A DNA stretch of 62,598 nt, counting the filler, from Bipalium vagum (taxonomy: Eukaryota), in NCBI GenBank assembly GCA_037834085.1. It is 3 parts of 3 records of this genome, joined end to end, with 100 filler letters (N's around TTAATTAATTAA, not from the genome) between each part and the next. Parts side by side here need not be neighbours in the genome. Positions count along the whole stretch, not along the records: positions 15,992 to 46,211 come from JBBMKC010002155.1; 2 more parts are not named here. One strand, given 5' to 3'. The notes below the pieces were generated by a model, which was not told where the DNA came from, ran no database searches, and worked only from the letters and a program-made list of their open reading frames with translations. Shown here piece after piece: positions 7,456 to 57,850 of this stretch. Position numbers and translations under genes: made by a program. Numbering within the stretch: the stretch's first letter is position 1; each line of letters begins with the position of its first letter.

Positions 7456-8699
7456 GACCCAGATATCTAACAAAGGGAAAATATAAAAATAATTAAAAAT
7501 AAACAGAAAATATAATAAATCCTTGACAAATATTTATTGATTGTTTTAATTAATAAACATATTTCACAATATCGATATTCAATCAGAACTTTAAATAATC
7601 ATTATTTTCCAAATTATTTTTTTGGAATATATTTTTTTGGAATATATTTTTTTTCATTGAATACCTGAAAAAGAATGCATTATAATCTGAGAGCATTATC
7701 ACTCAGAACTCACATAAAATATCTGAACTCTCCATGCATTAAAAAACGGAAAGATTATTGAAAAGAAATGAGAATAATTTTCCCGCTTTTTAAGAGAATT
7801 TAACTGATCTTTTTCCTATATAATCCCTCGCTCTCTTTATCTTTCCTCGTTTTTATTGACGATGATGAGCTGAGAATAATATTTCTTTTGTTTCCCCCCT
7901 GTTTTCTTAAATATTTAAAATTAGTTCCAACTCATTGACGGTGAATGAAGAACCATGATGTTTTTTGTTGATTCTACGGCATTGGGTTTCTGTTTTATCT
8001 ATTATTTGTATTGCTTTAATGGTCCCGATATATTTTTCCTTTACAATAGATATAACATTAATTATTCATTTGGTCTCGAATATAATTTCTTCGACTTCTG
8101 AAAAGACTTCTTAAATCAGTCTTTACTTTGAAATAGTACATATCTTCTTTCGGTCCAGTAAGTAATGTTTATTAGATTGTGATGTTCAGAACGTAATGGT
8201 GTTTTTTGAAGTCAACAAAGATTTATTTCTTATAAACAATTAATCACACATGTATTCAGTATTACTTTGAAAACACAGTCACCACTCCGCCAACTTTTTG
8301 ACAAATGTTTATGCTGTTCTAAAAGAATCTGATTCAATATGAATTATTAAGCCGTGTACTAAAGGTCAAGAAATTTTCTTTACTAATGTTTTAAAATGAA
8401 CTTTGGCATTTTACTCTGTTCTCTGTGTTACTACTGCACATCAGCGAAATAATTTTTAAGACTTCTGCAGTACTACATTTTTTTCTAAGCTCATATATCA
8501 CGATTTACGTCAAATCTTTCTCATTTCCATTCTGAAACAATGCATAAATTATTATTAAACTTTTTTTTATTGTGCTGTCAAAAAACAAAATTGATGAGTT
8601 TAAATTGATATTTTCTTTTCACCTAAAATCGATTAGTTTTCTTAAACAAATTAATATTTGAGTATATGAAGACTGAAACAAGTTTGTTTAACAAAATAT

Positions 8700-15992: not shown

Positions 15993-16640
15993 TATCTCCA
16001 ATATGATATTTTGGTTTTGAGGATAATTGAGAAATGGAAGAAGTTTTATCAGTTGGATCATTCTTTAACTTTTCAGAATTAGCAAGAGGCTCAGTCAACT
16101 TCTTTGGACTTTTAGATGCTTCTGTTGATGTTATTCCAAGTGAAATGTGAATTTTATTATTATAAAAATTAATTAAGTTTGGTAAAAGATTTAACCATTT
16201 TCTGTTTTATTGTTCTGTAAATTTTTTAACATTAAATTTTTTAGAGTTTTATTAAATCTTTCTATTACAACTGCTTTTCCTTCATTCTCTGTTCAGTAAA
16301 TTTCAATCTAATTATCATCACAAAGATCTTCAAATGTTTTATTATAAAATTCTGTTCCTTTATCAACCAAAAGTTTTTCAGGGACCCTATTTAAATCTTC
16401 AAATATTTAATCAGATGCATCTGTAATTGATTGACCTATTTTATTTTTTAAAAGAGCAGCAAAAGCAAAACGAGTATATAAATCAATAACTGTTAGAATT
16501 ATTTTATAATCTTTTTCTCCAGGAACAAATGTAAGATCAGCAGACCAAATATCGTCTTTGTTATTAACTTTAACTTTTAAAATTTTTTTAGGTTTTCTAA
16601 ATTCTTTATGAAGTTTATTTGCAAGTATTTTTGATTTTTC
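15993..16640 (-). pseudogene. Polinton/Maverick-type retroviral-like integrase (disrupted)
   Basis: Minus translation: ILANKLHKEFRKP...KDDIWSADLTF...YKIILTVIDLYTRFAFAALLKNK...PEKLLVDKGTEFYN...KAVVIERFNKTLK...WLNLLPNLINFYNNKIHISLG. This is a D,D,E integrase in the Polinton style, with internal stops. Confidence 0.85.
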
Positions 16641-16679
16641 AGGAGTAAGAATTTTTGTTTTTGCATAGAGTTTTCATTT

Positions 16680-17240
16680 GCGAGAGTCTTTGAAGATCTT
16701 TCTAATCCTAATCCTAAAGCGAACTTGCTCTTCATTATTAATTTTATAATTGCTCTTTCAAGTTTTTCTCTTGAAGTTGGATTTTGAATATTGTTCATTT
16801 CATGAATCATTTCTACATCTGCAACACGGGTATCTTTTAAATCTGTTGACATATATTTCTTTCATTGCTGCTTGATCAACTCGATTTACTGTAATTGAAC
16901 CAGGTTTTGGAATTGGTAGAATTGATAAATCTTGATTTTCATTATAATTATTTATTATTTCATTATAGTTTTTAAAACGTTTGTCAACATGAGTTCCAGG
17001 TCCTGTAAAATTTGTTTTATTTAAAGGATTTAAAGATTTTAATGGTAATTCACCTGGGTATTTTCCTGTTGTAAATTTGTTAAGGAATTTATTATTACTT
17101 AAAGCTGATTGAATATCTCCTCCTGTTTTTATAAAAAAAGATGAAAATCTTTCTTGAATGTTTTGAATATTTAGATTTTTATTTTTAGTTGTTGATAAAA
17201 TTTTTTCAGTCGTTGTTTTATTTTTTTTTGTTCTATTTTT
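16680..17240 (-). pseudogene. Parvovirus-VP1-like phospholipase A2 (PLA2X-type) domain of a Polinton/adintovirus
   Basis: NFTGPGTHVDKR...VNRVDQAAMK, frameshift, ...TRVADVEMIHEM...KLERAIIKLIMKSKFALGLG, directly upstream of the integrase. The catalytic HD is lost at the frameshift (~16855). Confidence 0.8.
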
Positions 17241-18360
17241 AAAACTGCAAACGGTGACCTTTATTCTTAACATATACCATTTTGACACATGTTACATGAA
17301 ACAGTTGATTATACATGTTCTTTAATATAGATCCGGCAAGAATCATATATTTTGTTGCATGAGTTATTAAAAGAACAAAGTTCTGCCTGTGTGTGCCCAG
17401 AAACCGAATCATTAACGTACTGGCATACGCTTTCACTATTAACTTTATTGGGTAAATATGTTGTTGTTGGTTTGTCGATGCATCCCACAAGAATGTTCAT
17501 AAATCTGAAAATTGTTAATATCGCTTTTCTCAACAATAGGGAAAATCTTTTTTACATCAATTAGATCCTTTGCATGATTTTTTGCCTTAGATCCTCATTG
17601 TAACACTTAGGAGCAGCATGAAGAATCAGATGGACAATCATTTCCAAGGACTTTAAATAGATTGACAACTACTGGATGATTCAGTTTATATAGCGGAATA
17701 TATGCCGCCATAAATGCTTTAGCTACTTCTGTTGTAAAGCTACATTTTGATATTGTCAAAAATGATTGAGTAGAACATGCTGCCTGCTTATTATTGTGCT
17801 TCCCAGATTGACGGTGGCTCTCTACAAAATGACGCTTTTCATGTTTTACAATGGCGTCGCACAATTTTCAGTACAGTTGATTTGTAGGGGTAGTAATAAA
17901 TTCTGTCGGGTAATCAATAACGATCCTGTTGACTTTGCATGATTGACTCGCTCCTATCTTTGGCATTGATGGAAATTACAATTACTTATAATTAAAATTA
18001 CTCACAAACTAAAATTAAACTTACTTCTATAAAACTTAAATTTGATTTAATTTATTATCTAATATTATTTAAACATTTTTAACCGTATTTTAACTTTATA
18101 ATTAGGGCAATTTATTTTAAACCTAAAAAAAAATTTTTAACTTTATTATTAACTTTGTTATTAAAAATTTTAACCGTATTTTAACTTTATAGCCTAAAAA
18201 TTTTATTTTTAAAATAACCATAAATTTAACCTATATTTTAACCTTATAAATCACGATAGAGGGACCTTCGATGACCAAAAATGGTGTACATGTGCTTTGT
18301 AGGCCAAGAGAATCTATAGGACACATTTTAACTTTATTAACTTTTACTTGCCCTAATTAT
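17240..18360 (-). mobile_element. Truncated hAT-like transposon with CGGBP1-like transposase N-terminus
   Basis: MPKIGASQ...LCDAIVKHEKRHFVESHRQSGKH (zinc finger)...AFMAAYIPLYKLNHP...NFVLLITHATKYMILAGSILKNMYNQLFHVTCV. Subterminal repeats (tttaaccgtattttaacttt) at 18075-18240. Confidence 0.7.
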
Positions 18361-19633
18361 AACTAGCTTCCAAATTTTTAATGTATATATTTAGTAATTT
18401 TATTATTTTTGGGGTTATTTACGTGTCTAAATTATTAATAGTTATATGTGGCTATTTTAGCTCACAATATTTCTGATTATAATTATTTAATTATAATTTA
18501 ACTATTAGTTTATTATTTTACTTAATATTTTGATTCAAAAATGTTTATTTTTTTTAATTAAACATTTATCAAAATATACAATATTTAAAGAATATATACT
18601 TAAATAAATAAAGACAATGGGTCTAACGAGACCTTTTCGTACAAATGATATACACAAAGTAAGACTGTTGTTAATCATCAGTGACATCAGTTAATTTAAT
18701 CTTTTCCCACTGGATTCTGGGACTGCTTTGTAGCTCCTTTAGGCTCAACGGCAAATATTAAATTTCTTGTTATGGAGGTTAAATGAGTTGCGTAAGGAGT
18801 TTCACTGAATTTAATGTGGATCCAAACATTATTATTACAAGTCAGATCGTTTGGAGATCTCTACAACTCTTATAGATGTGCCTATGGTCATTCTAACATA
18901 TATTTTGTTTAGACTTAGTGAAAAGTTATCCTGAACACATTCATTAATGAAAAGATATATTTCACAACTGGTTTTCCATCAGCCAGTAAAGGAGTCAGAA
19001 GCTTATCATCAACTTTGAAATCATGTCTATATAATAATTAAACTATTAAAATAATCAATATGAAAATTTCATTTTTCTAAAAATAAAATTATGGACTTGA
19101 AAGCCTCCATATCTTATTAATAAAAAAGATATTGAATTTTCTAAAAAATTCTTTTGATTGAACTTCTTTCTTAACATTATCAAATATTTTTCTAAAATTA
19201 AAAATTCTAACCAGTAATCTTATATAATAATTAATTATTAATAAAGAATGAATTACCATAATGATTAAGTTTAAAATAAGTTTTTTTAATATTAATAATT
19301 AATAAATGGAATTTTCAAATAAGCCTAAGGGTTTTATAGGATTTAGGTATTACAAATTGTAGTAGAATTTTCAATGTAGAGTTTTTAATTTTCATTAAAA
19401 ATTCTATAATTTTTACATTTAATCATTTTTCATGTTCGTTTTAATTAATCAGTAAACATGTATTTTTTTGTTATTATTTTAAGAAATTTTCTAATTTACA
19501 GTAAGAGATTTTAAATATAAAAAAGTTTCAAGAAAAATATTCTTTCTATTATTTTTTTATAAAACTATACCATAGAAATTATTAGAAAGTCAGTGGAGCA
19601 AATATTTTTCAGCAAATTTTAAAGAAAAATATA

Positions 19634-20173
19634 ATGTCTAATTATTCAAAAATTAGTGTTCTTGAAAAAGTCAACCAGATGTTTGTCTGCTCAATCTGTT
19701 GTGATTTTAAGCTAGTTAACAATTCAAAGCTTTTTGCTACATCAAATCCATCCCTTTTTCTCGAACATCAGCGGTGTTGTCATCCATCAATTAGCGAATT
19801 CGAATGCATTTATTGTTGCAGTCATTTACCAGCCGTCGATTTGATGCAACATATCCAGAACCACTTTTCCAATTCAGTAGCGTCTGACAGTAGATATGTT
19901 TGTGCTCATTGCTCTAATCGAGTTAAAATCAACATTACTAATTGCATGGAACACTTGGAAACAGAACATCCAAACGTTGAATTAGAATGTCCTCATTGCA
20001 AGGCATCGTTTACAGATCGATTAGATCTCTTAAGTCATCTAAGGAATAATATATTATATGTATTTCATTGCTTGTACGAGAATTGCTTTGTAAAGAGTCA
20101 CAACATAATGGGTATATTGGCCCATTTGAAACGTGTCCATTTTGGATCCAGGTGTCTAAAGGTGGAATGTATG
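19634..20173 (+). CDS. Zinc-finger gene exon 1 (4-5 C2H2-type fingers)
   Basis: ATG at 19634; CIYC..HIQNH, CAHC..HLETEH, CPHC..H, CLYENC..HLKRVH. Phase-0 donor ATG|gtaata at 20173/20174. Confidence 0.85.
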
Positions 20174-20529
20174 GTAATACTTTGCTATAATATTTGTATA
20201 TTTTTTATATTTAGATTTATTTTTGTTACATTAAATAAATGATCCATAGATAATTAACGAAAAAATATATTTCTCGCTACATCTTCAAATTCAAATTCAT
20301 GAAAAATATAATCAAAATTTTTAAATTGATATTGTAAGTGAAAAATAAATCAATGAAAACAGAGAAATATTTGAAAAACTTTTACAACTCGGCTTTAAAA
20401 TAATTAATATAAATAGTATAATATATCTAAAAATATTTTACATGTCAAAAATATATCGATCTTTACATTCAAATATTGAAAATCAATATATTTTATTAAT
20501 TTTTAAAAATGATTGCGCAATTTTATTAT

Positions 20530-22096: not shown

Positions 22097-22768
22097 TTCA
22101 TTTGTATGGAGCGCATTTCTAGAAAACCACCGTGCAATTGCACAGAAAATTTAAATTTATCATCACAGACTCCTCTTAAAATTAACAGTCCTGCAAGAGA
22201 TGATTGTCAACTTATCGCCCTTCCTTATTCTACGCGAGTCCTCAGTAAATTATCATCGGGATTCGATGAAAGACTCCGAGAAGATCTGATCAGTAAAATG
22301 AATCAGTATTCAAAATTTAAAGTTCGTCTTGAAATTGTCGATGGTCAGAAACAATTTGTCTGCTCGACCTGTCAGTACCGATCTGTTCATTCATTGGCGG
22401 ATGTACGTAAGCATATCCTCGGATGTCATTGTAGTGTGAGCACCAGTTATACACGCCTATGTTTGCGAGCCAGTCGTTTGGATACAAACACATTCTCTCT
22501 GTTTTCCGACAGGAAATTGATATCATTCGCCAACGAGAAATTAAAAAGAGCCGAATCCGGAACCGCCTGGGACGGAAATGGTGACACGAGCACCATGCAA
22601 TTATTGGATGACAGCGAACCTGAACAAGAGACGAATATTGATTCTATTACTAGACCAATAAAAAGAGGATCTTTGACGAGTGGGACAGCTGGGTCAATAA
22701 AACGAGCTCGTCTCACACATAGGCAAAGCCATTCTGTCAAAATGAGGTCTGACTCTCCAATACCTGAG
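22097..22768 (+). CDS. Zinc-finger gene exon 2 (first extended zinc-finger module plus basic linker)
   Basis: Acceptor ctttttgtag|TTC is in frame with the 22106 ORF; donor CCTGAG|gtaaat; 672 nt, phase 0-0; contains FVCSTC...DVRKHILGCH. Confidence 0.85.
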
Positions 22769-23749
22769 GTAAATAATCGCATTTATTATTATTTTGTTAT
22801 CTAAAATGTGCAATTTTTATTTTTTAAATAATAGATAATCTACTTGTTAATTTTCTGATCATAATAATTTTTACCTATTTTTAAAATATTAATATTCTGT
22901 AAGTTATTGATAATCGATAACTAAGATATTTAGTTATCGATTTAATATTTTTCATTTTTCATTACTTATTGATCTATTAAATTCTTGAGAAATATTTTTA
23001 TCATAGGATATAATTTATTGCATCACAATTGATTTTATTTTAAATGTCCTAAAATGTTACGTTTTAATCTCGAAATATTCAAAGGATTAATTGAAAAATA
23101 TATTATAATATATAATGTTCAGATTATAAATGAATTCCTAATGAATGTTTTTTTTATTTCGTATCACTTTTATATCAATCTCTTCTGTTCTTGTAAAATT
23201 GACAAAGAAAAAGAAAGATTTGCTTCCTTATTAATAGAGGAATTTTACTGGCCAGTAGAAATGATTATAATTTAATCCCATTGGTTGAAAATATGTTTTT
23301 CCGTATTTCTGAAAAAGTCTTAATTTCCCCTTAAAATATTTTAAAGTAAACTGACTTAGAAAGGATTTAAAACTAATCTTGTCATTTCTTTTTCGTTTAA
23401 GGACTTCCTTTTTTCTTTTACAACTTCAATGACCAGAAATGTTAGTAATTCATTCATTTTTCAAGAGATTTTAAACTTCCAAATTGTGTGTTATTTTTTC
23501 ATTTCTTCATGATTTATTGGCTAGGAGCCAATTTTCGAAATTGAAAACCTTGAACTCATTTTTAAACAATTCACCTATTTAATAATAATGAATAACAAAA
23601 ATATATTTTTATTCATAAACAGGGTATTTGCATAAATTAATGTCCAATGATCTAAAGCTTGAACTCTTTTCTCACAAATTCATAGTTTCGTTTTAATAAA
23701 ATTTAAATTGAAACTGTCGACCACTGTAAACGGTCTTTACTTGTTTCAG

Positions 23750-24691
23750 GTCGGTCAACCACTGGAACGAAACGAAAAGATCGATCGTGTCATTCATTTA
23801 AATTATTCATGGCACGTTTTGGAAAAGCTCGTTGCTGGGCAATGTCCGGAACGTTATCTGCCGATATTGAGTCGAAAAATGGACGTATATGCTCTTCACA
23901 GCATTCTTTTAACTCGGCGAAACGGAAAACGTTATTTTCTGTGTTCTCATTGTCCCAATTGTTCACCACATGGCATGAATGATATACGTAAGCACATTCT
24001 TGGTGTTCACGCTCGTCTGCCAGAACGATTCAAAGCAGCTGCTATGTACTGTTCAAGAATGAATAGAGACAATTATGGTCTGCTGTCAGATGATGAATTG
24101 TTGAAAAAAAATCAAGACATGGTACGTTGGCGAACTGTACCCCCGACTGGTGGTAGCGGTACCAGTGATGATAACTTGATGGATCCTCTTCCACCTTTGC
24201 AACCTACTTCAATGACATATGAAGATTCAACATCTCCATTACATCAAAACAATCAACACAAGTCTCACAACGTATTCCTTTCTGGTTCCACAGGTGACAA
24301 CGGTGACATCAGTCCATTCTCGTTTGTAGCCATGCCAGAAGACCCAGTCATTCAATTTACATCGTCAAAGCTCAGCAATCACAACGGTAATTTTTCGACC
24401 AAGAATACCACCGACTCGAATGAGTCTTCTCCGAAAATCGATGACAATTCTTCAGTGACATCTGTGATTAACAATAATTTCAACCACAGTATTAATTTTA
24501 ATAATACTCAGCAACAGCAACAACTTAGCAACGGTCGCAGCAGACGGTCTCTAGCATTGAAATCCAGGAGTAGTAACCACCACCACCCCCACAACAACAA
24601 CAATAATAGTAATAATAATAGCAATGCTAACTGCAACGGCATCGGCATCGGCATCGGTATCGGCAACAGCTGCAAAAACGAGAGCATCTAG
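23750..24691 (+). CDS. Zinc-finger gene exon 3 (second extended module plus N/Q/H/S-rich tail; stop TAG)
   Basis: Acceptor ttgtttcag|GTC in frame; FLCSHC...DIRKHILGVH; low-complexity C-terminus. The joined CDS is 717 aa. Confidence 0.85.
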   Translation, partial: VGQPLERNEKIDRVIHLNYSWHVLEKLVAGQCPERYLPILSRKMDVYALHSILLTRRNGKRYFLCSHCPNCSPHGMNDIRKHILGVHARLPERFKAAAMYCSRMNRDNYGLLSDDELLKKNQDMVRWRTVPPTGGSGTSDDNLMDPLPPLQPTSMTYEDSTSPLHQNNQHKSHNVFLSGSTGDNGDISPFSFVAMPEDPVIQFTSSKLSNHNGNFSTKNTTDSNESSPKIDDNSSVTSVINNNFNHSINFNNTQQQQQLSNGRSRRSLALKSRSSNHHHPHNNNNNSNNNSNANCNGIGIGIGIGNSCKNESI

Positions 24692-25999
24692 CCAACAGCA
24701 AATGTCATCTTCTCCAGCACTGCACTACACTCACATCGATCGATCGATATTCAATGATGATAATCATCATAATAATTGTCAATGTTATATCATTTCACCA
24801 CAGACCAGAATTAAAAAAACAATACCACACGAGAGAGACATAGAGAGACAGAGAAACACAGAGAGAGAAAAGATCACATCGATTTGTGTGAGCACAGTGC
24901 ATTATCATCATTGTCTTTATTATTTTTGAGCTTTGTAGACAAATAGTCAGCAAGATGATATAGATATATTTAAGCAGAGAGACAAATACGAAAGAGACAA
25001 TATTGCTGTCAATGTTGATTAGTATTAATATCAAGAGCAACATTGAATAAGATTCAAAAATTGTATCAGGACGATAAACATGAACTGGACATGTTAGAGT
25101 TTTTGTGGAGAGCCGAAAGTAAAATGATTTTATCTGTAATTGTCGTTGTGTTGCTGCTTGTTAATTATTTTGCTATTCTTGCTACCATTTTTTTACCATT
25201 AAGATATTTGTCACCGTTTGTCAGCTCTCGTGCTTTTCAACATTATTGTCTTATTCATTTTTTATTGATTTGTGTTAATAAAATTACAGGTCTGCTTAGA
25301 CAAGTTCATACATGGCAACGACAAAATGAACAAGTACGAAAAATTGTCATTTGCTACACTACGCGACCCAGAATCTGCGAGTTAAAACATTAATATAATA
25401 TTATCATTGTCATATCTACTTATTATTATAATAATATTAATATTATTAAAAATATTATTTTTTATCGACAAGCACCCACATAAATAGATAAGACAACCGT
25501 CGAAGTGCCAGACACGAGCAACTCGACTGTGTAGATTGTGAATGAGTAGTGATTTTGAAATTAGTCGTTTTTATCTGACATACCAACTAGATATAAATCG
25601 GTTTCATTCTGTACTGCCCTGCTTGAACTTCGTGCTAATTATTATAATTAAGTGTGAGTTCGGAGATTAGTCTCATGAACAACCGCTATCTCAGAGATAT
25701 ATTTATGCACCAGCTTGAGATCATCTAACCTAATGAACACATGACACAGTACGTTCTATGAAGGATCTGCTGTCGTCAATAGAGTCATTCTGTTATCAAA
25801 TTCAGTCGATCGATCGTTCTATTCGATTAGCACTATACAATCATCTACATGTGCTCCTTGAGATGTTTTTTTCCGATATAATAATTTTTAAAAATATTAC
25901 TCAAAATCTAAAGATCCGAAATCATAACAAAAAACATTTATTAAATCTTTAAAAAAATGAAACAATCAATAAAATTTAGTTGAATTATTGAGATTTTGA

Positions 26000-26236
26000 T
26001 TATTTCTTCTTTCCTTTACCGCTTTTCTTTCCCTTTCCACTTTTCTTTCCTTTCTTTCCTTTTTTACCTTTTCTCTTTTTTCCATAAGGACCAAGACCGC
26101 TGCGAGCACAAACTGTTCTCCACCAGCACTGGATTTTCAGTGATGATGCTACTTCTAACGCTTCTTTCTCCTTAATCCTCAGCTGCTTTTCTTTCTCAAT
26201 TCTGTCATTGATGACAACATTTTCGTATTTTATATA
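26000..26236 (-). CDS. IQCG: IQCG/DRC9 exon 6 (IQ motif and Lys/Gly tail)
   Basis: Acceptor tttcag|TAT; KIQCWWRTVCARSGLGPYGKKRKGKKGKKGKK matches the DRC9 C-terminus; TAA at 26000. Confidence 0.9.
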   Translation of the reverse strand, partial: YIKYENVVINDRIEKEKQLRIKEKEALEVASSLKIQCWWRTVCARSGLGPYGKKRKGKKGKKGKKSGKGKKSGKGKKK

Positions 26237-26349
26237 CTGAAAATAAAGAAAATTATTAATCATCCAGACAATGTTTTATTGTATTTTCCATACATTAAAA
26301 AATAGAAATGGAAAAGAAATGTCATGTTCTCTTTACAAAAGAAACTAAC

Positions 26350-26800
26350 AGTTTGTGTCAGGTCTTTTAATTTTGCCAGATCTTTGTTTTTGCTGTTATT
26401 AAGGACACTTAGATTTTTTTTCAAAGCTTCGGTATCCACATCATATTTTTGTGACCAGTATTTTGTTTTACTGTTTATCTTGTCAAGGTAATCACGCAGC
26501 CAACTCTCACTCTCATTGTGAACTCGTTGTTCGTTATCTATCATACGATCTAAGCAACTCAACTCATTTTGTAAATTTTGCTCATTTTGCTGACACAATT
26601 TTGCAGTCTGTGCCACTTGGGCTATACATCTTGCTCGGGTGTACTTGAGCTCCATACTTGTTTTGGCCTTGGTTTCCTGAAGTTGGTCCTTTAGGTGAGC
26701 AATCATTTCGTTACGGCTTTGAATTTCTTCAAGTTCTAGATTTTTCACTTCCTCAATCTCTTTTTTCAACTCTTTAATTCGTTTGCGACTGTTCTCTTCA
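26350..26800 (-). CDS. IQCG: IQCG/DRC9 exon 5 (coiled coil)
   Basis: tttag|T GAA...CAA ACT|gttagt; RNEMIAHLKDQLQETKAKTSMELKY...EQRVHNESESWL...YWSQKYDVD. Confidence 0.9.
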
Positions 26801-26849
26801 CTAAACAGTTAAAATAAATAATTTTTTTCTAATTCATTGTTTCTGTTAC

Positions 26850-29164: not shown

Positions 29165-30631
29165 AGAGTAGGGGGCACTTTCGTCTTAGGGGTATTCGAT
29201 ATAGGGGGCGCATTCGGTGTAAGGGGCACCTTGAAAAATCAAATCAAAAAAATGCCCCTTTTTTATGGTTTTCAAATTTTAAAGACACAAACTTAAACTA
29301 AAGAAAATTCACGGCGAAATGAAAGATTCTGATCAAGATGCAGCGAGAAAATATGCTGAGGAGTTTAATACTGTTACTAGAGATTATGAATTAATGAATA
29401 TATTCAACGCAGATGAAACAGCTCTTTTTTATAAAGCCTTGCCAGCTAAGAGCTATGTATTAAAATGCGAAAAAATTCAAGGTAAAAAGAGAAACAAAGA
29501 ACGATTGACAGTATTGTTTTGTTGTTCGAAACGGAGAGAAATTGCTACCTTTAGTGATCGGGACAAGTAAATATCCACGAGCTCTTAAAAATATTGATTT
29601 GAAATCTTTAGGAGTCATATATGAGTCTACTAAAAAGGCTTGGATGACGCGTGATTTATTTTCTAGGTGGTTAGTCAAAGTCAAAGAAAATTTTAAAAAA
29701 GAAAAATTGTACTATTAATTGACAATGCTCCGAATCATATTATGACTACACTTTCTAATATAAAAATTTTATTTATGCCAAAGAATACCATAAGCATATT
29801 GCAGCCTTGCGATCAGGGCATAATAAAAACGTACAAAACTTTTTACAGAAGCTTTCAAATTGAAGAATTAGTTACATCTGTTCTTATAGCGGGTAAATTT
29901 CAAAAAATTACACAATTAAATGCAATTGAATGGACCATTTTCTCTTGGAGCAAAGTCTCAGAAGAAGTTATTATAAATTTTTTTAGACACAGTAAATTAA
30001 TAAAACACAATTCATTGCAGAAAGAGAAAAAATTGGAAGATGAAAAGATCATAAGACAAGACATTGAGAAAACGAACGAGAATTAATTCAGAGTAATCTC
30101 GAAATTTTGAACAATAACAATTATGATTCATGTTTTATAAACAATTTCCTTGAAATCGACGATGGAATCATAGAGAAACATGAAAATATTTTTGATTTTA
30201 CTATAGTGGACAATAGCGTCAGTGATATTGTTGAGGAAGAATTAATTGAGAATGAAGTGGAGGATGCAGTAGAAAATTCGATGAAAATTTAAACTGATGA
30301 AGAAGTTGAAAAGTCGCCTGAAATACAGTTTTCAATAGCTGAGAATTGATTGGAATTGGAATGAAAGTTATATGAATCAATCAGCTTTATTCAATCAAAT
30401 ATTTCGATGACTTGTCCAGAGTCCGTACAAGAATTTTACGAATTCAGAAGAAAGTTTTATTCCAATTTTAATAAATGAAAGTACAAAAGAAAATAACTGA
30501 TTAGATGTGTGTTGAATAAAATAATTAATAAATATTTTTGATTTATCTTTCCCTAATGGGCACATTCGGTGTAAGGGACACTTCGAGAAATTTCAAAATC
30601 AAAAGAGCCGCCTATATGAGAGTTTGCTGTA
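29165..30631 (+). mobile_element. pogo/Tigger (DDE_1) transposon relic inside IQCG intron 3
   Basis: IFNADETALFYKALP, KERLTVLFCC, KKAWMTRDLF, LLIDNAPNH, MPKNTISILQPCDQGII. Subterminal repeat cattcggtgtaaggg near both ends; right end gagagtttgctg|ta. Confidence 0.85.
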
Positions 30632-33300: not shown

Positions 33301-33899
33301 TTTATATATAAATATTTCTCCAGCTGGGAAAAAGTTAAAATATTACATTATCAAATTAACATAATACCAAAATTATAATAAATAAATATTTAAAAATTAT
33401 TTATTAATAAAATGGATGAAAGAAAAAATTTAGAGTGTTTATCTAATGAGGACTCAAAATTCAAAATAAATTTCCACAAAATAAATATTATGTTATATTT
33501 TTGGGTGCTACAAAGAGTTCTTTAAATAAAAAAGATTTGATAAGCTATCAAAAAGATTTATCATGGTTAATAAATAACTGTACAATAAAACTAAACATGA
33601 AAATACAAATGTACATTTAAATGGTCTAAAAACTAATAACACTAATACTAAAAGTACTAAAACTATTAACACTAGCACTAGAAGTACTAATTTTGAAATT
33701 ATTAAACAAAAATATCCAACATTTTTTAAAGAAGGCGGTAGCACGCAAGTCACACCCGCCTTCATGTCTTCATATTCTTCCTCCATTGGCTCTGTGAGGT
33801 TTAATATCGTAAATACTTTTTTGGTTTCTTCGATTAATAAAGTTGCCTTTTGTACCAAGCTTTGAGTAAGGGGTTTTTTTTAATGATTTTTCGTTAACT

Positions 33900-34400
33900 T
33901 GTTCCTGCCATGGAGTACAAATTAAGTTGCAGATTGCTACCATTTGCCAACAGTCTCTTTCGTTTCGCAATTTTAATTCTGTCCACATTGGTTAATCCAA
34001 TTTTCTCGCTATAACTAAAGGGGTTTGTTGGGGATACTAAGTTCTTATTTTTTATTGCGTAGCTAATTCTCTGATGTCCTGTAAGATTGATATTGGAATT
34101 TTGCATATATTCATAACATCATATATATTATATCCTGCTATCACTTTGTCCTGCATCAGGGTTCTTAGGTAATACTTGAAATGAAATTCATCCATCCCAT
34201 GTTCTAATTGGTCTTCAGTTATCCCTGTTTGCGGAACATTAATGGTTAGTACTCTTTTCTGGGTTCTACTATTGTGTTTAACAATATTTTGCCTTTTAGA
34301 TCCATTAAAGTTGCCGATAATATCTCTTGAGTTTGATCATGACCATCTTTCATGGTAGTTATGGCCAACATGCGTATATCTTCGGGGTTTACTTCACTGC
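33900..34400 (-). pseudogene. REX4/ISG20-like DEDDh exonuclease fold, catalytically degenerate
   Basis: IRMLAITTM...ILSATLMDLKGKILLNTIVEP/...QTGITEDQLEHG...LMQDKVIAGYNIYDVM...DIRELA aligns by eye to VALDCEM...ARVSIVN..G.VLYD.YV.P...SGIT...L.GKILVGH.L.ND. Confidence 0.7.
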
Positions 34401-35499
34401 TTTTAAAATTTATAGATTCTTTATTTTCCAGTTGTTTCTTGTACTGGTGGAATTCCTCGGGCATTGTTTCTATTTGAGATGGGATTTCTGTAAAGATAGC
34501 TTCTACAGCTATTACTGTGTCATTGTTTAGAACTTCGAAACATATGCTATTCTGACGTCCTTTTAGGTTAAAAGCCTTGATTGATTTTTCTTGCTCCACT
34601 TGAATGGGGCTAGTTCCAGCTATATGTAATAGAACTGGGTTTTTTATTATATGTGTGTATATGTTTTCGGTTAAGCGTCCTTTGTTGTTTGTTGCGCTTC
34701 TGATTAGGGGTTTTCCATTTAAAGTTAGACCTGGTTTGCTCATGTGGAAAATCCATAGGCTTCTATTTTGTATTTCATGCGTCTTAAATTGATTGGGAAT
34801 ATCTTTTGGCCTTGGATAATAAAGGAAATTCTTATTGTTATTTTTCAATTTGTAGTTAATCTTTTCTGCCATCATTTTTTAAATTTTGGTATCTTCTTGG
34901 TACTTCTCTAGTATGGTATCTGCGGGTTGATTTTGAAGATATTTCGATATTTGGATTGTAGTCATTGTTGGTTTTTGAGATGGTTGAATTGCGTTGTTTT
35001 GAATTCGAATTGTGTTGAGTTTGGATTGCGTAGCTTGTATTGTATTGATTTGATTGACTGCTGGAGAATTTTCTGAGTTAGCGGTAATTATGATTAAAAC
35101 TGAAAATATAAAATTAAAATTGGTTTTATATAAAAAACGTTTTTAATTAATTGGTTGCGCATGTTTTCATAAACCTGCACAACCTTTAGTAATTGTCATT
35201 TTGATCTTTGATATAATTGTCTTTTATTGGCTATTTTTACAATTAATATTATTATTGCTATTATGACAATTATTATTATTAATATTATTATTAAAATTCT
35301 TAAACTTGTCTTTACAATTTTGCCTCTTAAGTTACTTACAGTTATTTCCAGTATCTTTAGTAATTCTTCCTTTTCTGTATTTTGCTCGTTAACATATCGT
35401 ACGAATAATGGTTCTAATTCTTCTTTTTCTTTCTTACAATGTTTCTACATTTTACTGATGATTATCACTGAATTATGTAATGGCGAATAGTACTGATTT

Positions 35500-35897
35500 T
35501 TCTGTTCTAGCTAATAGTTGAAATTGTGATTACTTTATTGCTTCTTGTATTAGTATTTGTAAAGCAATAGTATTTTTCCATTCGATGGCATGGTCTATTG
35601 CTGATTTACCTACTTTATCTCTTTTTTTATTGCGCATCCTACTGATAATAATGCTATTATAAATTCTTCAGTAATTTTTCCGGCTGTTACTAACATGATA
35701 GCTGTATTTCCGTACATGTTTTCCTCATTTAATGACCATAAGCAAGTATTTTTTATTATTTTCATTATTTCCAAAGCTTGTTCCTCCTTATTTTTCAATA
35801 TTGCATTATTTAAAGGAGTATCTCCATATTTATCTTTCAAAGTAAATATTTCCGGTAACTGCCATGATATCTGATTAAATACCTCTTCTTTTGTCAT
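35500..35897 (-). pseudogene. Ankyrin repeats within the retroelement cargo
   Basis: DKYGDTPLNNAILKNKEEQALEIM...LNEENMYGNTAIMLVT...IIALLSVGC, followed by GKSAIDHA. Confidence 0.8.
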
Positions 35898-36129
35898 TCC
35901 TAATGCGAAGTTGTGCCCAATTTTAGCTATTTTTCATAATACCATCATAATTTCTTCTTTTTCATTACTGTTTGTATCCGTTTCAATTTCTTCATCTATT
36001 GATGTTCCTTCGCTATTACTCATTGAAAACAGCTCCTCGACTCCTTGTGAGATTTCATTTCTTAGAGGAACTATCGTTAAACTTACTTGCTCAGTTGGTA
36101 TGTTTTCATTTGGCTTTGGTATTACTGTT

Positions 36130-36465
36130 CCGAAGAATAATTGATTAGTATTGAAATTTATCATTAAATTGGGTATTTTGATAACAAAGCTATTCCAATT
36201 ATGCACTCATTTGGCGGATTCTCCATAATTTTTACTTCATGTCTGATGTTTTTTCCCTGCAATGTAAATTCGATTTCCACTGTTCCAATTAATTCCATTC
36301 TTCCTTTATTGATTCCTTCGATAATTATTGGAGTATAATGGATTCTTTGCTATTCTGCTATTGATAGCATACTAATATTAAATAGTATGCTATCCGGTGT
36401 TCCGGTGTCTCTTAAGGCGACTTGTAATCGACCGTTTATTGTTAAAGTTATCATAGGACGAGTTT
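36130..36465 (-). pseudogene. Second retropepsin-like aspartic protease domain downstream of integrase
   Basis: A frame missed by the ORF track reads RPMITLTINGRLQVALRDTGTPDS...IEGINKGRMELIGTVEIEFTL...NECIIGIALLSKY/NLMINFNTNQLFF; DTG at 36409-36401; one stop and one frameshift. Confidence 0.75.
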
Positions 36466-36821
36466 CGACTGGTTCTTGATTTCTTTAATATTAATTCTGC
36501 CAAAACTAGATATACCATTACTATAAAATATATTAATAGCAGTCCTATTATACTTCCTATTCTCATCCCCGTTATTAGTTCTTTTAATCCTTTTATTATT
36601 TCTTCAGTTTTCGTATTGTTTTTCATTGCTCTTCCTTCATCGCATATAGCTAAAAATAACAGTAATTGAAATAAATATGGTATTCTTTGAGCTTTATGTG
36701 GTCTTATATTGTATCTTGGTTGATTGTCCATATTTTCTTTTCCGGATTTATTTTTGTCTTGTTGTTCTGTATTTATTATATCTTCTGGTGTTATTGTCTC
36801 AGAGTCTTTTGTCATTAACTT

Positions 36822-37900
36822 CTATAACTTGCATCTATTTGCATGAACCATAATTGGTTCTTTGTATGGTTTCTTTGGGTCTAATAGACTTAGATTTGTA
36901 TTTAACACCTTTTGAACTTTATATGGACCTTTAAAAGTTCTTGTTAGTTTTCCTGATTGTCCTTTTTTAATTACGGGTGATTCCAGCATGACTAGATCTC
37001 CTTCTATTGGTAATTCTCCTTTGGCTTGTTTGTTGTACTGCTCCTTCGTTATTTCTTGGTTATATTTTATAGATAATCCTGCCTTTTTCCAGGCTTCTTG
37101 CAATCTTTCTCTCATTATTAATAAATAGTCCTCTTCATCAGCATAATGTGACGTTGGCGTATAAAATATCAGATCTACAGACATATTTGTATTCCTTAAA
37201 TACATTAGATAAAATAGCATGTTTCTTGATGTACAGCATTTCTATAGGCAAATAAGCATGATGCTATATGTACGTCCCAATCTCTCTGGGATGAATTTAC
37301 GTATGATGCTAGCATATCTTTCGACTAACCCATCAGTTTGTGAATGGTATGGTGAAGTATTTAGTTTCATGATGCCAAAATAATCATTTATACTTTTAAA
37401 TAATTCACTCATAAATTTGGTTCCTCTATCAGTTAGCATTTTCCTAGGTACGCCATATCGATACACTTTTTGTTCTACAAATATTTTTACAATTGTACTT
37501 GCTTTATGGTTTGGTATTGCGAAAGCTTCTGGCCATTTAGTGAAATAGTCACAAACTACCAGAATATACATGTACATGTTTCCTTCTTTTGTTTCCGGAC
37601 ATGGTCCTGTTATATCCATTGCTATTGTTTCCATGGGTGCTAATGGTACAGGCATTGGTTTAAATGGTAATTTTATTTTGCTATCTGTATTTTTTCTGGT
37701 TTGACATATTTCACATGTTTCACACCATTTTTGACATCCTGTGTAATACTAGACCAATAATATTTTTGTCGAATACGTGATAGTGTTTTTCTATTACACA
37801 AATGTCCCCTTAATGTTCCATCGTGATATTCTAGTAAAATGACCTTTCTAAGTTCTCTTGGTACTACGGGAACTGCATCCAAAAAATCTCTGTATTGCAA
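36822..37900 (-). pseudogene. Ty3/gypsy integrase (HHCC remnant, DDE core, GPY/F C-terminal motif)
   Basis: YHDGTLRGH; IAMDITGP...VCDYFTKW...YGVPRKMLTDRGTKF...TSPYHSQTDGLVER; KLTRTFKGPYKV. Confidence 0.93.
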
Positions 37901-51789: not shown

Positions 51790-52400
51790 TAAAACTTTTT
51801 AAGAATAACCATTAACTGGAACACACTTATGTAAGCGGTTGTGAAGGTCATTCTTAACATCTTGGCACATTTCTTGTGATATTCTCGCTGCCTCCATTTG
51901 AATAATATGTATCAAGTTTTGGATATGTCTTAGTTTTCTTCTATGTACCTGTGTCTCCTGATGCCCACAAAGGAAATAATCAAATGGGGTTTGGTCCGGT
52001 GAATTATTGTCGGTTTCATTAATTAGGCCTTTACACATTGCACAATCTTCATCATGTAAATTAATTTGTACCTTGTATGGATAAAGTTAAAACTCTCTTC
52101 GTTCAATATTGTGTAGAACTTTAAAATTACATCAAATCTCCTTAGCAACAGTTCTTAGCAATTTCTCAGAGGCTTCTTCACAAACAGAGTTATTTTGCAT
52201 ATTTTTCCATTTTCAATTGATGGTCTTCCAGAATTTCAAAGATCACAAACACCCCCAGTTTCTTTGAATTATGCAAATATCTTTCTCATTGTCCACGCTG
52301 TGCGTATATTTTCAATCTCAATTGTTCTAAATACCGTCTGATTAATGTTTCTGATTTTATCTTACCTGTCAGTATTCCAATTTATAATCTTTCATCATTT
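51790..52400 (-). mobile_element. Internally deleted Tc1/mariner-superfamily relic
   Basis: SPDQTPFDYFLCGHQETQVH...C..VNG C-terminus and FKETG...GRPS HTH remnant. Confidence 0.65.
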
Positions 52401-54363: not shown

Positions 54364-57199
54364 TCATTCGACATTTACAAAAAGTTCTTCCCCGATAACT
54401 TAAAATTAATAAAGTATTTGGTATGAATGCAGTTTTGAGTCGCACTGCGCAAACCTGGTTCAAAATATTTAGTATTGTAGATGAGAATTTTTAAAGTGAT
54501 GCAGGCCCTGACCATCTCCTGACAGTTTAAAATCACAAAAAGGTTGAAAGAAAATATTGATATATTCATTATGTGATTGAAGCTGATATTATAAAAATAT
54601 TATTTGATCATCTCTTGATTTCTCATATCTCGGTTTTCTGAATGATTTTCCTTTTATTATTATTTTATCACTAACGTATTCATAGATTTTTCATTCATCA
54701 TCACTATCAAAATTGCCATGAGTAAACAAAACTCATTTTTATTTGTACATTTTCTTTCTTGACAAAGAATTATGTGACTTAGCCCTTTACATGTTCTACT
54801 TTGTTGGGACACTCACTAATTGGAGTTATGAGGTGACGCTGTGTGTTTCCCTTGGTGCATATGAGCACTCCTATGACATTGGAAATTATTAACTTTAACT
54901 ATATACTCTAAAGGGCGTAGTTTGAAATATTTTTGTGGATGAATTTTGATAAATAGAGACCTCATTTAGAATAACGAATAATTAAATTCCTAAATTAAGT
55001 TTTTAAAATTGATATTAAAACGTAAAAATTTGCTTTTTAAATAAGAGTTTCTTAAATTCTTTAAGTTAAAAAGTTTTTGTAATTATTAAAAAGTAATAAT
55101 AATAAAAATAGCAATGAGGAGGATATTTAAAAACGCATTTGTTTGAATAATTGCTTTTAGAGTGAAAGCAGAAATTCAAATTATGTATAAAGCAGAATAA
55201 AAATTTCTCATTTTAAGATTTTCCCATTAGTAGACGTAATACGGACTTCAGATTATTATCGATATTAATGGTCAAATTACGTCCAACCAATACATCCAAA
55301 GGATGTGGTATTGAGTGTACAGTATTTAATGTACAGTACATTACAGTTAAATCAAAAAACATGAAGAAGGATTGTCTTTCAAGACTGTAATCAATTAATC
55401 ATCCAGTAACAGTCCACTTTAGGTCGACCTAAACGTGGCTTGTCTTCGAAGTTCAAATCTCAATTACTGAACTTTTATAGTTGTTAGCGACGCTTATATA
55501 ATTGAAAATTGAAACATTTGTACAGGATTCCGAAAGGAACTGAAAAGGTTGTAAAACATTGACTTAGGTAAACATAATTTTCTACGTAATTTTTTTAATT
55601 GCATAGATTTTATGGAATTTTTTAGTATACATTTTTCTGTGTATTTTTTTCTGTACATTTTTCTATACATAATTTTGTATATGTATTTTGCGACAAAATG
55701 TTACTCACCATACATAAGTTTTCATAGATTCAATATAAGTGAAGATGAGGTTTAAATTAAGTTTGACACAATTATATGAGCATAAATATACTAAAATAAA
55801 GAAAATAAAAAGTTTTGTAAATACCATTTTAAAGATAACAAAAATTCAAATGGAAGAAGAATCTCAAAATATAAAGAATTTCTTTAAGATTAAAAGAGAT
55901 AACATTAATATCAGGTAACGAACTAGAAAATAAAAATGATCCTTCCGCAAGTACTTTGGAAAATATAATATAAAGTTTACCAGAAAACTGATTCATATTT
56001 TATTTTATTTTCATTTTCGATTGAAATCAGATAAAATTTGATTAGTTATTTTATTAAGCTCTTTAACATACCATTCTTGAGACATAAAAGGCCCAGGAAA
56101 ATTTTCTTCCCCTACAAAAATTAAATGGTAAAAATGAACATTTTGTCGAAGAAATTGGAAGAAATATATATATATATATCACATTCATTTTTGAGATTTT
56201 TGATTACTCTTATAAAAATAATTACTTATATTTAATTATTTCCTGCAAATCTCAAAAAATGAAAATGCAAATGCAAATGAAAATTATTTTAATGAAATAA
56301 TAATTATTTTTTTCATTAAACTAAAATTCAATTTATTCAATTTCGAAACTAATTTCCATTTTCTTCAATATTATTTAAATTATAAAAAAGAAATTTTTTT
56401 CTTTTTTATTCATTTTTTTATAACACTGTAATCTTCAATATGCTAACTTTCCAAAGTATTATTATTATTATTATTTTTTTATTCTAATTATTTTTTTATA
56501 TTTTCGTATTTATTATTTCATTATTTTATTATCATTTATGAAATTTTAAATATGTATGCATAATTCAATTTATTTTTTTTGTTTTTTCAGAGGATTTAAT
56601 TAAAGTAATTTTTATAATCAATCATTTAGAAAATGACTTTAATATAATTCTTTATATAAAAAGAACAGATTTCTTTTTCTTACCAGATTTACTTTTAATT
56701 CACTTTTATCTTCTGTATTAACTGATTCTTGTTTCATTTTCGTTTTATTTAATTTATTTGATTATTATTTTCCATATTTATTAATTTTTTCTACCGTTTT
56801 TAATTTTGCATTATACTACAAACACGATGAAAAAGGAAAAATTTGATCTGTTCTTTAAAAAGAAATAAATTAAATTAAAAAAAATTTTATTAATTGATTA
56901 TAATTATAAATTTATTTCACATAAATAAATAAAAATATTTTTATAAGAAAATTTAATTTTTTTCTAAAAATTTATATTCGTCAACCGTGAATGTTGCGAT
57001 AAATTTTCATCAATATTTTTTTCATAAAAAATGTAAAGCATTAAAAAAAATATTAGTTAAATTTTATTATTATTATTATTTATAATTAAATATTATATTT
57101 TTACAAGTCATAAATGTTGTGATTCTATTATGAATGATGGAAATATTAAAAGTAATGAAAAAGTAATGAAAATCAATATATTAGGTTGTTTCAGAAGTC

Positions 57200-57850
57200 T
57201 TTACCGGAAAGATAAATAGAAAAAATATTTATTTTATAAAAACACAAGAATATTTTATTCGATAATAGAATGCCTATCTTTATCAATTACCTTAGTCTAA
57301 CGTTCAAACAAAAGTTCAATACAATGCTTGAAGAACCTCTGGTCTTTTCCGGTGATATACACAGAGAGGGCAACTTCAACAGCGCATTTGCTATTGAATT
57401 CTTTTCTCTTTAAGAAGTGCTGTAATGAAAGGAAAGATTATACTCTGTTGAAGCCATATCTGGATTATATAATTGGTGAGGAAGAAGTTCCTATCCAAAC
57501 AATTTAGATTCTGCCTGGTCATTTTTGTATTATTATTTCAGTTTTGTATTATCTCTTTGAAGAATACGCTTCGGCGATTAAGCAGAGATTGTCTGGTAAT
57601 TTTCAATTTATCACGTAGTTCACTTAATTGTCACCACACCAGAGAAGAACTTATTTCGGATAAAACCCGGTAGACCCGTAGAGGCTTGTCTTGCATATCA
57701 AAATCATTTTCGAAACTTCTTAAACTAGTTTTCATTTGTACTTAAGCTAATAGGTTCGAATAACGCCATAGATAACCGATTATTAGACTATTTGGCATTT
57801 AATTTACACTTAAACTCAAACTCTTGAGTTAATTCCATCTCCAAGAACAA
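57200..57850 (-). mobile_element. Mariner relic, same family as 5985-6290
   Basis: PHQLYNPDMASTE..LSFITALLK (YSPD-like) segment and a near-identical 3' end. Confidence 0.7.

What the first reader, a model, noticed from the sequence alone, without database searches (positions are those of the whole stretch)
36130..36700. A second, membrane-tethered aspartic protease located after integrase
Seen: a frame missed by the ORF track gives a complete retropepsin pattern (RPMITLTINGRLQVALRDTG, flap GINKG, ECIIGIALL), directly behind a signal-like segment and a TM helix. Known: in Ty3/gypsy the protease precedes RT. Inference: the element carried two proteases, the second anchored to a membrane and perhaps dedicated to processing the cargo polyprotein or host targets. 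The DTG triad is retained.
Basis: partly seen in the sequence, partly recalled or inferred. Interest (0 to 1): 0.72.

Follow-up and report, generated by a model that had tools for sequence, protein, structure and literature searches.

The report
Displaced protease in giant envelope retrotransposon
This is a broken copy of a retroviral-type protease that sits behind the integrase of a decayed, envelope-carrying retrotransposon; intact relatives often carry two or three such proteases in one protein, which is unusual for retroelements.

Summary
The retropepsin is real: Pfam RVP above cut-off, lineage profile E=1e-17, and a model that matches HIV protease. It is a pseudogene: one stop, a frame change in its C-terminal strand, and another between it and the TM helix. 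It lies in a decayed Ty3/gypsy element with Env upstream of RT, like planarian Burro elements.

It is the only protease in the window; nothing protease-like remains between Env and RT. It groups with the lineage's canonical pre-RT proteases (98/95), sister to that of the closest intact relative (40% identity). It does not group with the old accessory ones. So it is a young duplicate or a relocated canonical protease.

The wider result is lineage-wide. Of 29 relatives, 12 have a D[ST]G protease after integrase in an open frame. Of 13 spanning Env to RT, 10 have two or more proteases before RT. None of the 12 has a TM between integrase and protease, so tethering of this copy is unproven. TM-then-canonical-protease does occur before RT in two relatives.

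Multi-protease polyproteins were not found in my literature searches. Verdict: new variant of a known kind.

The parts
41115..41650 (-). Remnant of the C-terminal part of Env (fusion glycoprotein), upstream of Pol
   Evidence: tblastn of L013 aa 1337-1514, 56% and 49%, E=1e-49; that part of L013 hits Pfam PF24664 at E=1e-90
39600..41110 (.). AT-rich stretch of unknown origin between Env and RT; no protease or dUTPase-like remnant
   Evidence: no hit with lineage protease profile, dUTPase-region profile or tblastn
39400..39607 (-). Junction where the canonical protease plus dUTPase-like region (about L013 aa 1565-1895) is missing; weak likeness to Env tail, then to the pre-RT linker
   Evidence: pairwise E=0.13 and E=0.010 in a small search space: weak
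38532..39400 (-). Reverse transcriptase, broken by frame changes
   Evidence: RVT_1 E=8.6e-27; 60-72% to L013
38099..38539 (-). RNase H, with in-frame stops
   Evidence: RT_RNaseH E=1.2e-32
36825..37865 (-). Integrase (zinc finger, core, C-terminal part), broken
   Evidence: Integrase_H2C2 E=4.8e-14, rve E=2.8e-11; 61% to L013
36630..36690 (-). Signal-peptide-like segment after the integrase tail, in the integrase frame (one stop at 36824-36822 between them)
   Evidence: hydropathy; a hydrophobic segment follows the integrase tail in L013, L014, L017, L020, L021, L023
36486..36557 (-). Transmembrane helix followed by basic residues; 43 codons after the signal-like segment, against 125-549 from first to last post-integrase hydrophobic segment in 20 relatives
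   Evidence: 0 of 2000 shuffles; spacing
36167..36484 (-). Retropepsin of canonical type with DTG; pseudogene (stop at 36352-36350; frame changes at both ends)
35931..36166 (-). Protease C-terminal strand and linker, in the same frame as the ankyrin repeats
   Evidence: weak likeness to L013 protease C-terminus and what follows it, E=0.005; not seen by a profile
35497..35930 (-). Ankyrin repeats, shortened and broken
   Evidence: 45-49% to post-integrase ankyrins of L018, L019, P0164; those hit Ank_2
35225..35335 (-). Hydrophobic segment that looks like the signal peptide and final TM of the L018/L019 cassette fused, with the ectodomain gone
   Evidence: pairwise E=1.6e-4 to both L018 segments, 6e-5 to L019 TM; low-complexity, so weak
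34079..34995 (-). Separate downstream ORF with a DEDD-type exonuclease-like domain, broken
   Evidence: 32-40% to L013 ORF2, E=6e-28; Atlas leads to RNase_T/REX4 at score 0.84 and TM 0.41-0.47; no Pfam hit
33700..33765 (-). Purine-rich tract followed by TG: possible polypurine tract and start of the 3' LTR
   Evidence: by eye, same pattern after ORF2 in L013 and L014; LTR pair not found

Best explanation
The window holds a decayed, internally deleted copy of a Burro-like GAG-ENV-POL Ty3/gypsy element (shown by homology). In its active parent, a young duplicate of the element's own canonical Pol protease sat in the cargo part of the single polyprotein, in the protease slot in front of the ankyrin repeats (canonical origin shown by tree; membership in the active parent inferred). 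The likely topology is: signal peptide cleaved after integrase, short luminal stretch, TM, then cytosolic protease and ankyrin repeats, then a second membrane segment (inferred from hydropathy and basic residues after the TM). The domain would dimerise like other retropepsins and cut the cargo polyprotein locally, releasing the ankyrin part (inferred from family knowledge; untested). The pre-RT protease and dUTPase-like region were lost later by deletion in this copy, as were Gag, most of Env and both ectodomains (inferred). Today the domain is dead.
For: Post-integrase proteases are common in intact relatives: 12 of 29, all with D[ST]G. They are under purifying selection in the one DNA pair tested (L018 vs L019 pN/pS 0.41, 95% bootstrap 0.29-0.63). 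The label needs 4 changes on the integrase tree, so gains and losses recur. All ankyrin-bearing relatives seen (L018, L019=P0172, P0164, P0148) have a protease domain just before the ankyrins. The spacing from the protease C-terminal Gly to the first ankyrin motif is 92 codons here against 93 in both L018 and L019, but 235 in P0164. Protease C-terminus and ankyrins share one frame with one stop. The protease departs from 2 of 11 conserved columns, against 19 of 91 for RT and 12 of 61 for RNase H, so it is no more decayed than RT. All 13 Env-to-RT-spanning relatives keep a pre-RT protease, and this copy has lost many other parts.
Against: The pre-RT protease is absent, so two proteases are not seen in this copy. 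TM and protease are out of frame within about 30 nt; at about one frame change per 440 nt along RT to integrase (6 in 2.65 kb), decay alone would hit that window roughly 7% of the time (my estimate). The TM-end-to-Asp distance is 25 codons against 80 and 89 in P0006 and L023. 0 of 12 relatives put a TM between integrase and protease. The two closest relatives scored, L013 and L014, have no post-integrase protease. No other post-integrase protease is of canonical type. The segment missing before RT is the same module that appears after integrase, which looks like a move rather than a copy. The residue before the catalytic Asp is of a type seen in 0 of 44 relatives, and the residue two after the C-terminal Gly lacks the D/N seen in 40 of 44.
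Confidence: 0.42

Rival explanations
1. Scrambling in a defective copy. Template switches or later genomic rearrangements moved the canonical protease (perhaps with an upstream signal-ectodomain-TM module, as in L023 and P0006) behind integrase. The order TM-protease-ankyrin was never part of a replicating element.
For: One protease only, of canonical type, at ortholog-level distance from L013: 39% at RT 73%, against 21-39% for 23 canonical pairs at RT 70-75%, while canonical vs post-integrase proteases of one element are 19-29%. Out-of-frame, very short TM-protease junction. The copy lacks Gag, most of Env, both ectodomains and part of the ankyrins. It is a mosaic of an L013-like backbone and an L018-like ankyrin cassette.
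Against: Protease-to-ankyrin spacing within one codon of L018 and L019 (noticed after the fact). Integrase-signal-TM and protease C-terminus-ankyrin are each in one frame. The lineage repeatedly builds such cassettes in open frames.
Confidence: 0.28
2. Functional relocation. After a tandem duplication and reciprocal loss, an active subfamily kept its only protease behind integrase (Env-RT-RH-IN-signal-TM-PR-ankyrin). The protease stayed membrane-anchored by the new TM instead of by Env and still processed the whole polyprotein.
For: Exactly one copy of each enzyme remains. The missing pre-RT block is the module found after integrase. A TM-then-canonical-protease module exists in L023 and P0006, whose proteases fall in the same 8-row subclade as the window's (89/81, not starred). 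Decay equals that of RT.
Against: 13 of 13 spanning relatives keep a pre-RT protease. The pre-RT junction has a frame change close to it and cannot be placed. The TM-protease junction is out of frame.
Confidence: 0.22
3. A nested fragment of another related element, or an assembly chimera, supplies the protease.
For: Scaffold gaps exist elsewhere in the window. An unexplained 1.5 kb stretch splits Env from RT. AU tests do not formally exclude a position outside the canonical clade: canonical clade without the window row p=0.229; grouped with three post-integrase proteases p=0.063.
Against: No boundaries or repeats flank the protease. No N-run lies within the element. Protease, RT, integrase, Env and ORF2 all point to the same closest relative, L013.
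Confidence: 0.08

Closest known systems
Burro/GYPSM1 giant gypsy-like LTR elements of planarians (PMC6431247, section 7 read whole; figure not seen; Grohme 2018 not held)
   Same: Env in frame between Gag and protease, a ubiquitin/SUMO-like domain, ankyrin repeats and accessory ORFs are all described there and are found in the relatives here. The paper notes decayed fragments with stops and frameshifts in Dugesia japonica.
   Different: The section names a single PR and mentions no protease after integrase. No Burro sequence was available for direct comparison. Relatives here have 2.7-4.1 thousand aa polyproteins, shorter than the 4.9-5.1 thousand aa cited.
GAG-ENV-POL errantiviruses with HSV/gB-type Env in Platyhelminthes, Nematoda and Bryozoa (PMC13524379; passages and a supplement term search seen)
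   Same: Gene order Gag-Env-Pol in Ty3/gypsy elements; six Schmidtea entries are listed in a supplement.
   Different: 'protease' occurs once in the main text and not in the 7 supplements held as text; ankyrin, dUTPase and exonuclease do not occur in the main text. Extra proteases are not discussed in what I saw.
Canonical Ty3/gypsy Pol (PR-RT-RH-IN) and retroviral proteases, Pfam RVP PF00077
   Same: Fold, D[ST]G motif and RT-RH-IN order.
   Different: The protease lies C-terminal to integrase, and relatives have 1-3 protease domains between Env and the end of one ORF.
Membrane-embedded retropepsin APRc of Rickettsia conorii (PMC4140852, abstract only)
   Same: Shows that a retropepsin can be membrane-bound, autoprocess, dimerise and cut other membrane proteins.
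   Different: Bacterial stand-alone gene, not a retroelement domain; no specific kinship tested beyond a fold match of a relative's model (Z 8.5).

Membership tests
Retropepsin (retroviral-type aspartic protease) | D[ST]G catalytic motif | tested here: met
   DTG within 36412-36401, aligned to the invariant DTG of 11 relatives
Retropepsin (retroviral-type aspartic protease) | Profile match over the whole domain | tested here: met
   RVP 23.2 bits vs cut-off 20.7, profile positions 2-95 of 101; lineage profile iE 1.2e-17
Retropepsin (retroviral-type aspartic protease) | Retropepsin fold | tested here: met
   model pLDDT 82; HIV-1 protease E=2.5e-7, TM about 0.7; the model leans on the alignment of relatives
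Retropepsin (retroviral-type aspartic protease) | C-terminal hydrophobic-hydrophobic-Gly-x-D/N motif | tested here: inconclusive
   Gly kept; D/N absent, as in 4 of 44 relatives; may be decay
Retropepsin (retroviral-type aspartic protease) | Dimer formation and proteolytic activity | not testable with these tools
   the window copy has a stop and frame changes; no dimer prediction was run
Ty3/gypsy LTR retrotransposon | RT-RNase H-integrase order | tested here: met
Ty3/gypsy LTR retrotransposon | Two LTRs, PBS and PPT | tested here: inconclusive
   no LTR pair in the window; PPT-like tract by eye only; the 5' part of the element is missing
Burro-like GAG-ENV-POL elements | Env upstream of Pol, in frame with Gag and Pol | tested here: met
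   Env remnant upstream of RT in the window; single 3184-aa ORF in closest relative L013 with PF24664
Burro-like GAG-ENV-POL elements | Ubiquitin/SUMO-like domain and ankyrin repeats | tested here: met
   in relatives: P0148 ubiquitin E=4e-5, Rad60-SLD E=0.0015 (both below cut-off), Ank_2 E=3e-13; ankyrins in the window by homology
Burro-like GAG-ENV-POL elements | dUTPase-like domain between PR and RT; BCL2-like domain before Env | tested here: inconclusive
   profile of 6 relatives hits a dUTPase only at E=1; 3-sequence profile finds no BCL2; both regions are absent from the window
Burro-like GAG-ENV-POL elements | Direct sequence kinship to Burro1/GYPSM1; length over 25 kb; planarian host | not testable with these tools
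   no Burro sequence or host genome held; organism is coded; planarian host is my inference from architecture and low GC
Lineage's accessory (extra pre-RT or post-integrase) proteases | Falls outside the canonical pre-RT protease clade | tested here: not met
   inside canonical clade, 98/95 and 97; AU tests do not formally reject the alternatives (p=0.063, 0.229)

The most novel reading that the evidence does not exclude
An active retroelement subfamily moved its only protease behind integrase and re-anchored it on its own TM helix (Env-RT-RH-IN-TM-PR-ankyrin), a Pol order I found in no relative or paper. It did so within a lineage whose single polyproteins carry several retropepsins that divide the processing work, including constrained copies that lack the catalytic Asp and may act as regulators.
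Probability: 0.2. Interest if true: 0.8.

Novelty: new variant of a known kind. Interest (0 to 1): 0.58.

Why it matters
Retroelements are normally described with one protease ahead of RT (established knowledge). Here a whole lineage of Env-carrying elements repeatedly duplicates the domain inside one membrane-spanning polyprotein, before RT and after integrase, and keeps the copies under selection where this could be tested. That makes several questions testable with intact natural sequences: whether retropepsin paralogues split the cleavage sites, whether they heterodimerise, and what Asp-less copies do. The window adds a case in which the canonical protease itself has been copied or moved recently, which shows how such cassettes arise. 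The window copy alone is a dead, heavily deleted element and cannot carry the claim of a membrane-tethered second protease.

Tried and rejected
Host genome: none held, so sister copies could not be examined there; other copies in the host remain unexamined by any route.

Word-index search with the window protease alone: 0 of 54 candidates at E<=10, weak evidence. Viral contigs gave 12 distant elements only (22-27%). Earlier findings: none by place, words or sequence.

By-eye remnant of the dUTPase-like domain after the protease: not supported by a profile; only E=0.005 pairwise. By-eye Env tail next to the pre-RT linker: E=0.13. No significant DNA likeness between protease flanks and the pre-RT gap.

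Idea that tandem proteases fold into a single-chain pepsin-like dimer: the model of L018's two domains shows retropepsin-like secondary structure in both halves but rmsd about 15 A to tethered HIV protease dimers; 11-row alignment, pTM 0.56; no support, not excluded. No complex prediction was run, because retropepsin pairs would pass by likeness to solved dimers.

The window-vs-relative pN/pS rows that contain stops were wrong through an indexing error and were redone. Synonymous sites are near saturation, so only pN/pS is quoted. One search crashed at the integrase core piece; the rows before it stand.

BCL2 and dUTPase labels were not confirmed. Grohme 2018 not held. Atlas exonuclease hits are under 0.9 and are leads only.

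Full report
OBSERVATION. The window is 16-40% GC per kb, eukaryote-like, with no genome held. On the minus strand lie RT, RNase H and integrase (Pfam E=9e-27, 1e-32, 3e-11). A 143-codon ORF follows at 36821-36393 with a signal-like stretch and a TM helix, and then the protease in another frame at 36484-36167. The protease hits RVP above the curated cut-off (23.2 vs 20.7 bits, E=8.6e-5). A profile of 17 proteases from relatives, without the window's, gives iE=1.2e-17 and no other significant hit in the six frames. A model (pLDDT 82; 12-row alignment) matches HIV-1 protease at E=2.5e-7. The TM is beyond chance (0 of 2000 in two shuffle tests). The domain is broken: a stop at 36352-36350, a frame change near 36170 inside its C-terminal strand, and a frame change within about 30 nt between TM and protease.

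WHAT THE ELEMENT IS. A search with the closest locus added long polyproteins (120 listed of 334). L013 is the nearest near-complete one: a 3184-aa ORF with Gag, zinc knuckles, Env (PF24664, E=1e-90), one protease, RT, RNase H, integrase and a C-terminal membrane protein, then an ORF2. It maps onto the window at Env (41650-41115, 56%), RT (72%), integrase (61%), ORF2 (32-40%) and protease (40%, E=2e-13). L013's protease lies before RT, but its match in the window lies after integrase. L013 aa 1515-1914 has no match at its expected place, and no protease or dUTPase-like remnant is found there. Gag and most of Env are not in the window either. Downstream of the protease are ankyrin repeats 45-49% identical to those after integrase in L018, L019 and P0164. 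The architecture fits the planarian Burro/GYPSM1 elements as described in PMC6431247 (section 7 read whole) and the GAG-ENV-POL elements of PMC13524379 (passages). A planarian host is my inference. The BCL2-like and dUTPase-like labels come from that paper and were not confirmed here.

THE LINEAGE CARRIES SEVERAL PROTEASES. One search mapped 40 sequences picked from those lists by identity and domain content. Six distant ones and four duplicates were dropped, leaving 30; near-copies P0150/P0151 and P0156/P0158 are counted apart. Of 29 that extend over 150 aa past integrase, 12 have a post-integrase protease, each with at least one D[ST]G. It starts 30-57 residues after integrase, with no hydrophobic segment between in any of the 12 (maximum 15-residue hydropathy 0.81, against 2.97 for the window's TM). 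Of 13 that span Env to RT, all have a pre-RT protease and 10 have two or more there. P0164 has three protease domains after integrase. L023 and P0006 have signal peptide, ectodomain and TM directly ahead of the canonical protease. For L018 vs L019, pN/pS is 0.41 for the post-integrase protease, 0.48 for the following copy that lacks the catalytic Asp, and 0.30 for the C-half of the canonical one; RT gives 0.08. Post-integrase presence needs 4 changes on the integrase tree.

WHICH KIND OF PROTEASE IS THE WINDOW'S. In a 50-row tree, all 18 canonical pre-RT proteases form one clade (98/95). The window's sits inside it, sister to L013's (96/82); the 19 post-integrase and 12 extra pre-RT domains lie outside (eight sequences and hits under 80 aa left out). 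Removing nine long or degenerate rows kept this (97). AU tests are less decisive: p=0.063 for grouping with three post-integrase domains, and p=0.229 for a canonical clade without it. Identity to L013's protease, 39% at RT 73%, is at the top of the 21-39% seen in 23 canonical pairs at that RT distance; canonical vs post-integrase domains of one element are 19-29%. The window is sister to the L013/L014/L025 group (98); its two scored members, L013 and L014, have no post-integrase protease. So this is a young copy or a move of the canonical protease, not a member of the old accessory set. It is no more decayed than RT (2 of 11 conserved columns changed vs 19 of 91). Two motif positions are atypical among 44 relatives.

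MECHANISM. Shown: domain order, canonical origin, absence of a pre-RT protease, open-frame precedents. Inferred: in these single-ORF elements, Pol is the cytosolic tail of Env's TM until cleaved, so a TM-anchored protease is the lineage's normal state. After integrase, a signal peptide would start a second membrane protein. In the window's parent this would place protease and ankyrins in the cytosol between two membrane segments, where a dimer could release them. For its presence in an active parent: a protease domain precedes the ankyrins in all four ankyrin-bearing relatives; the spacing is 92 codons against 93 in L018 and L019, though 235 in P0164 (noticed after the fact); and the protease C-terminus is in frame with the ankyrins. 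Against: the out-of-frame TM junction (about 7% by decay alone at one frame change per 440 nt; my estimate), 25 codons from TM end to Asp against 80-89, a signal-to-TM distance of 43 against 125-549, and the many other deletions. I give 0.42 to duplication with later loss of the pre-RT copy, 0.28 to scrambling in a defective copy, 0.22 to functional relocation and 0.08 to nesting or mis-assembly. That the parent's domain was TM-tethered I put at about even odds. Sister copies in the host were not examined, which leaves these readings open.

WHAT IS IN PRINT. Seven searches of the held library found no paper describing several retropepsin domains, or one after integrase, in a retrotransposon. 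I saw listings for all of them. For PMC6431247 I read passages and section 7 (figure not seen). For PMC13524379 I read passages and ran a term search of 7 supplements (figures not readable). For PMC11410931 I read passages and for PMC4140852 the abstract. Grohme 2018, its supplements and Repbase were not available and may show extra protease domains in Burro. That one protease ahead of RT is the rule for Ty3/gypsy is established knowledge, recalled.

VERDICT. The robust and more interesting result is the multi-protease polyprotein of the lineage. New variant of a known kind; interest 0.58.

Noticed in passing
L018 aa 1245-1345 and L019 aa 1383-1483 of the long ORF; also P0164, P0148: Retropepsin-like domains without the catalytic Asp precede the ankyrin repeats; constrained in L018 vs L019 (pN/pS 0.48). 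Possible pseudo-protease regulators.
   Followed up: partly
L018:5290-6460 and the post-integrase membrane proteins of most relatives: Ectodomain looks like fibronectin type III repeats (Atlas score 0.90, low recognition value): a second surface protein besides Env.
   Followed up: partly
window 34079-34995; L013 ORF2; L018:6861-9920; L020:12085-13470: Downstream ORFs look like DEDD exonucleases; L018 appears to have two. The first acidic motif is clear in some relatives but not in the window or L013 version (by eye).
   Followed up: partly
window 16200-17291 (-): A second integrase fragment (about 30% to relatives) next to an ORF with a GPG motif recalling parvoviral or Polinton phospholipase A2 (recalled, untested); possible Polinton-like remnant.
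   Followed up: no
window 29283-30086 (+) and 51802-52086 (-): Fragments that read like pogo/Tigger and Tc1/mariner transposases (recalled).
   Followed up: no
window 39995-40284: Three copies of a 78-nt unit spaced 118 and 94 nt, inside the unexplained stretch between Env and RT.
   Followed up: no
window 5946-6201 and 57179-57435: A dispersed repeat of about 255 nt, 82-85% identical.
   Followed up: no
P0001 and P0168: Lineage members that carry bacterial MAG labels at NCBI; probably eukaryotic contamination of those assemblies.
   Followed up: no
L014:7344-7748: A Gag-like start follows 1.9 kb after ORF2: a tandem copy or a circularly permuted assembly.
   Followed up: no
window 6382-7533 (-), 19586-20242 (+), 22097-25393 (+), 26003-26808 (-): Long exon-like ORFs of host genes, including zinc-finger-like and coiled-coil proteins (by eye).
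   Followed up: no
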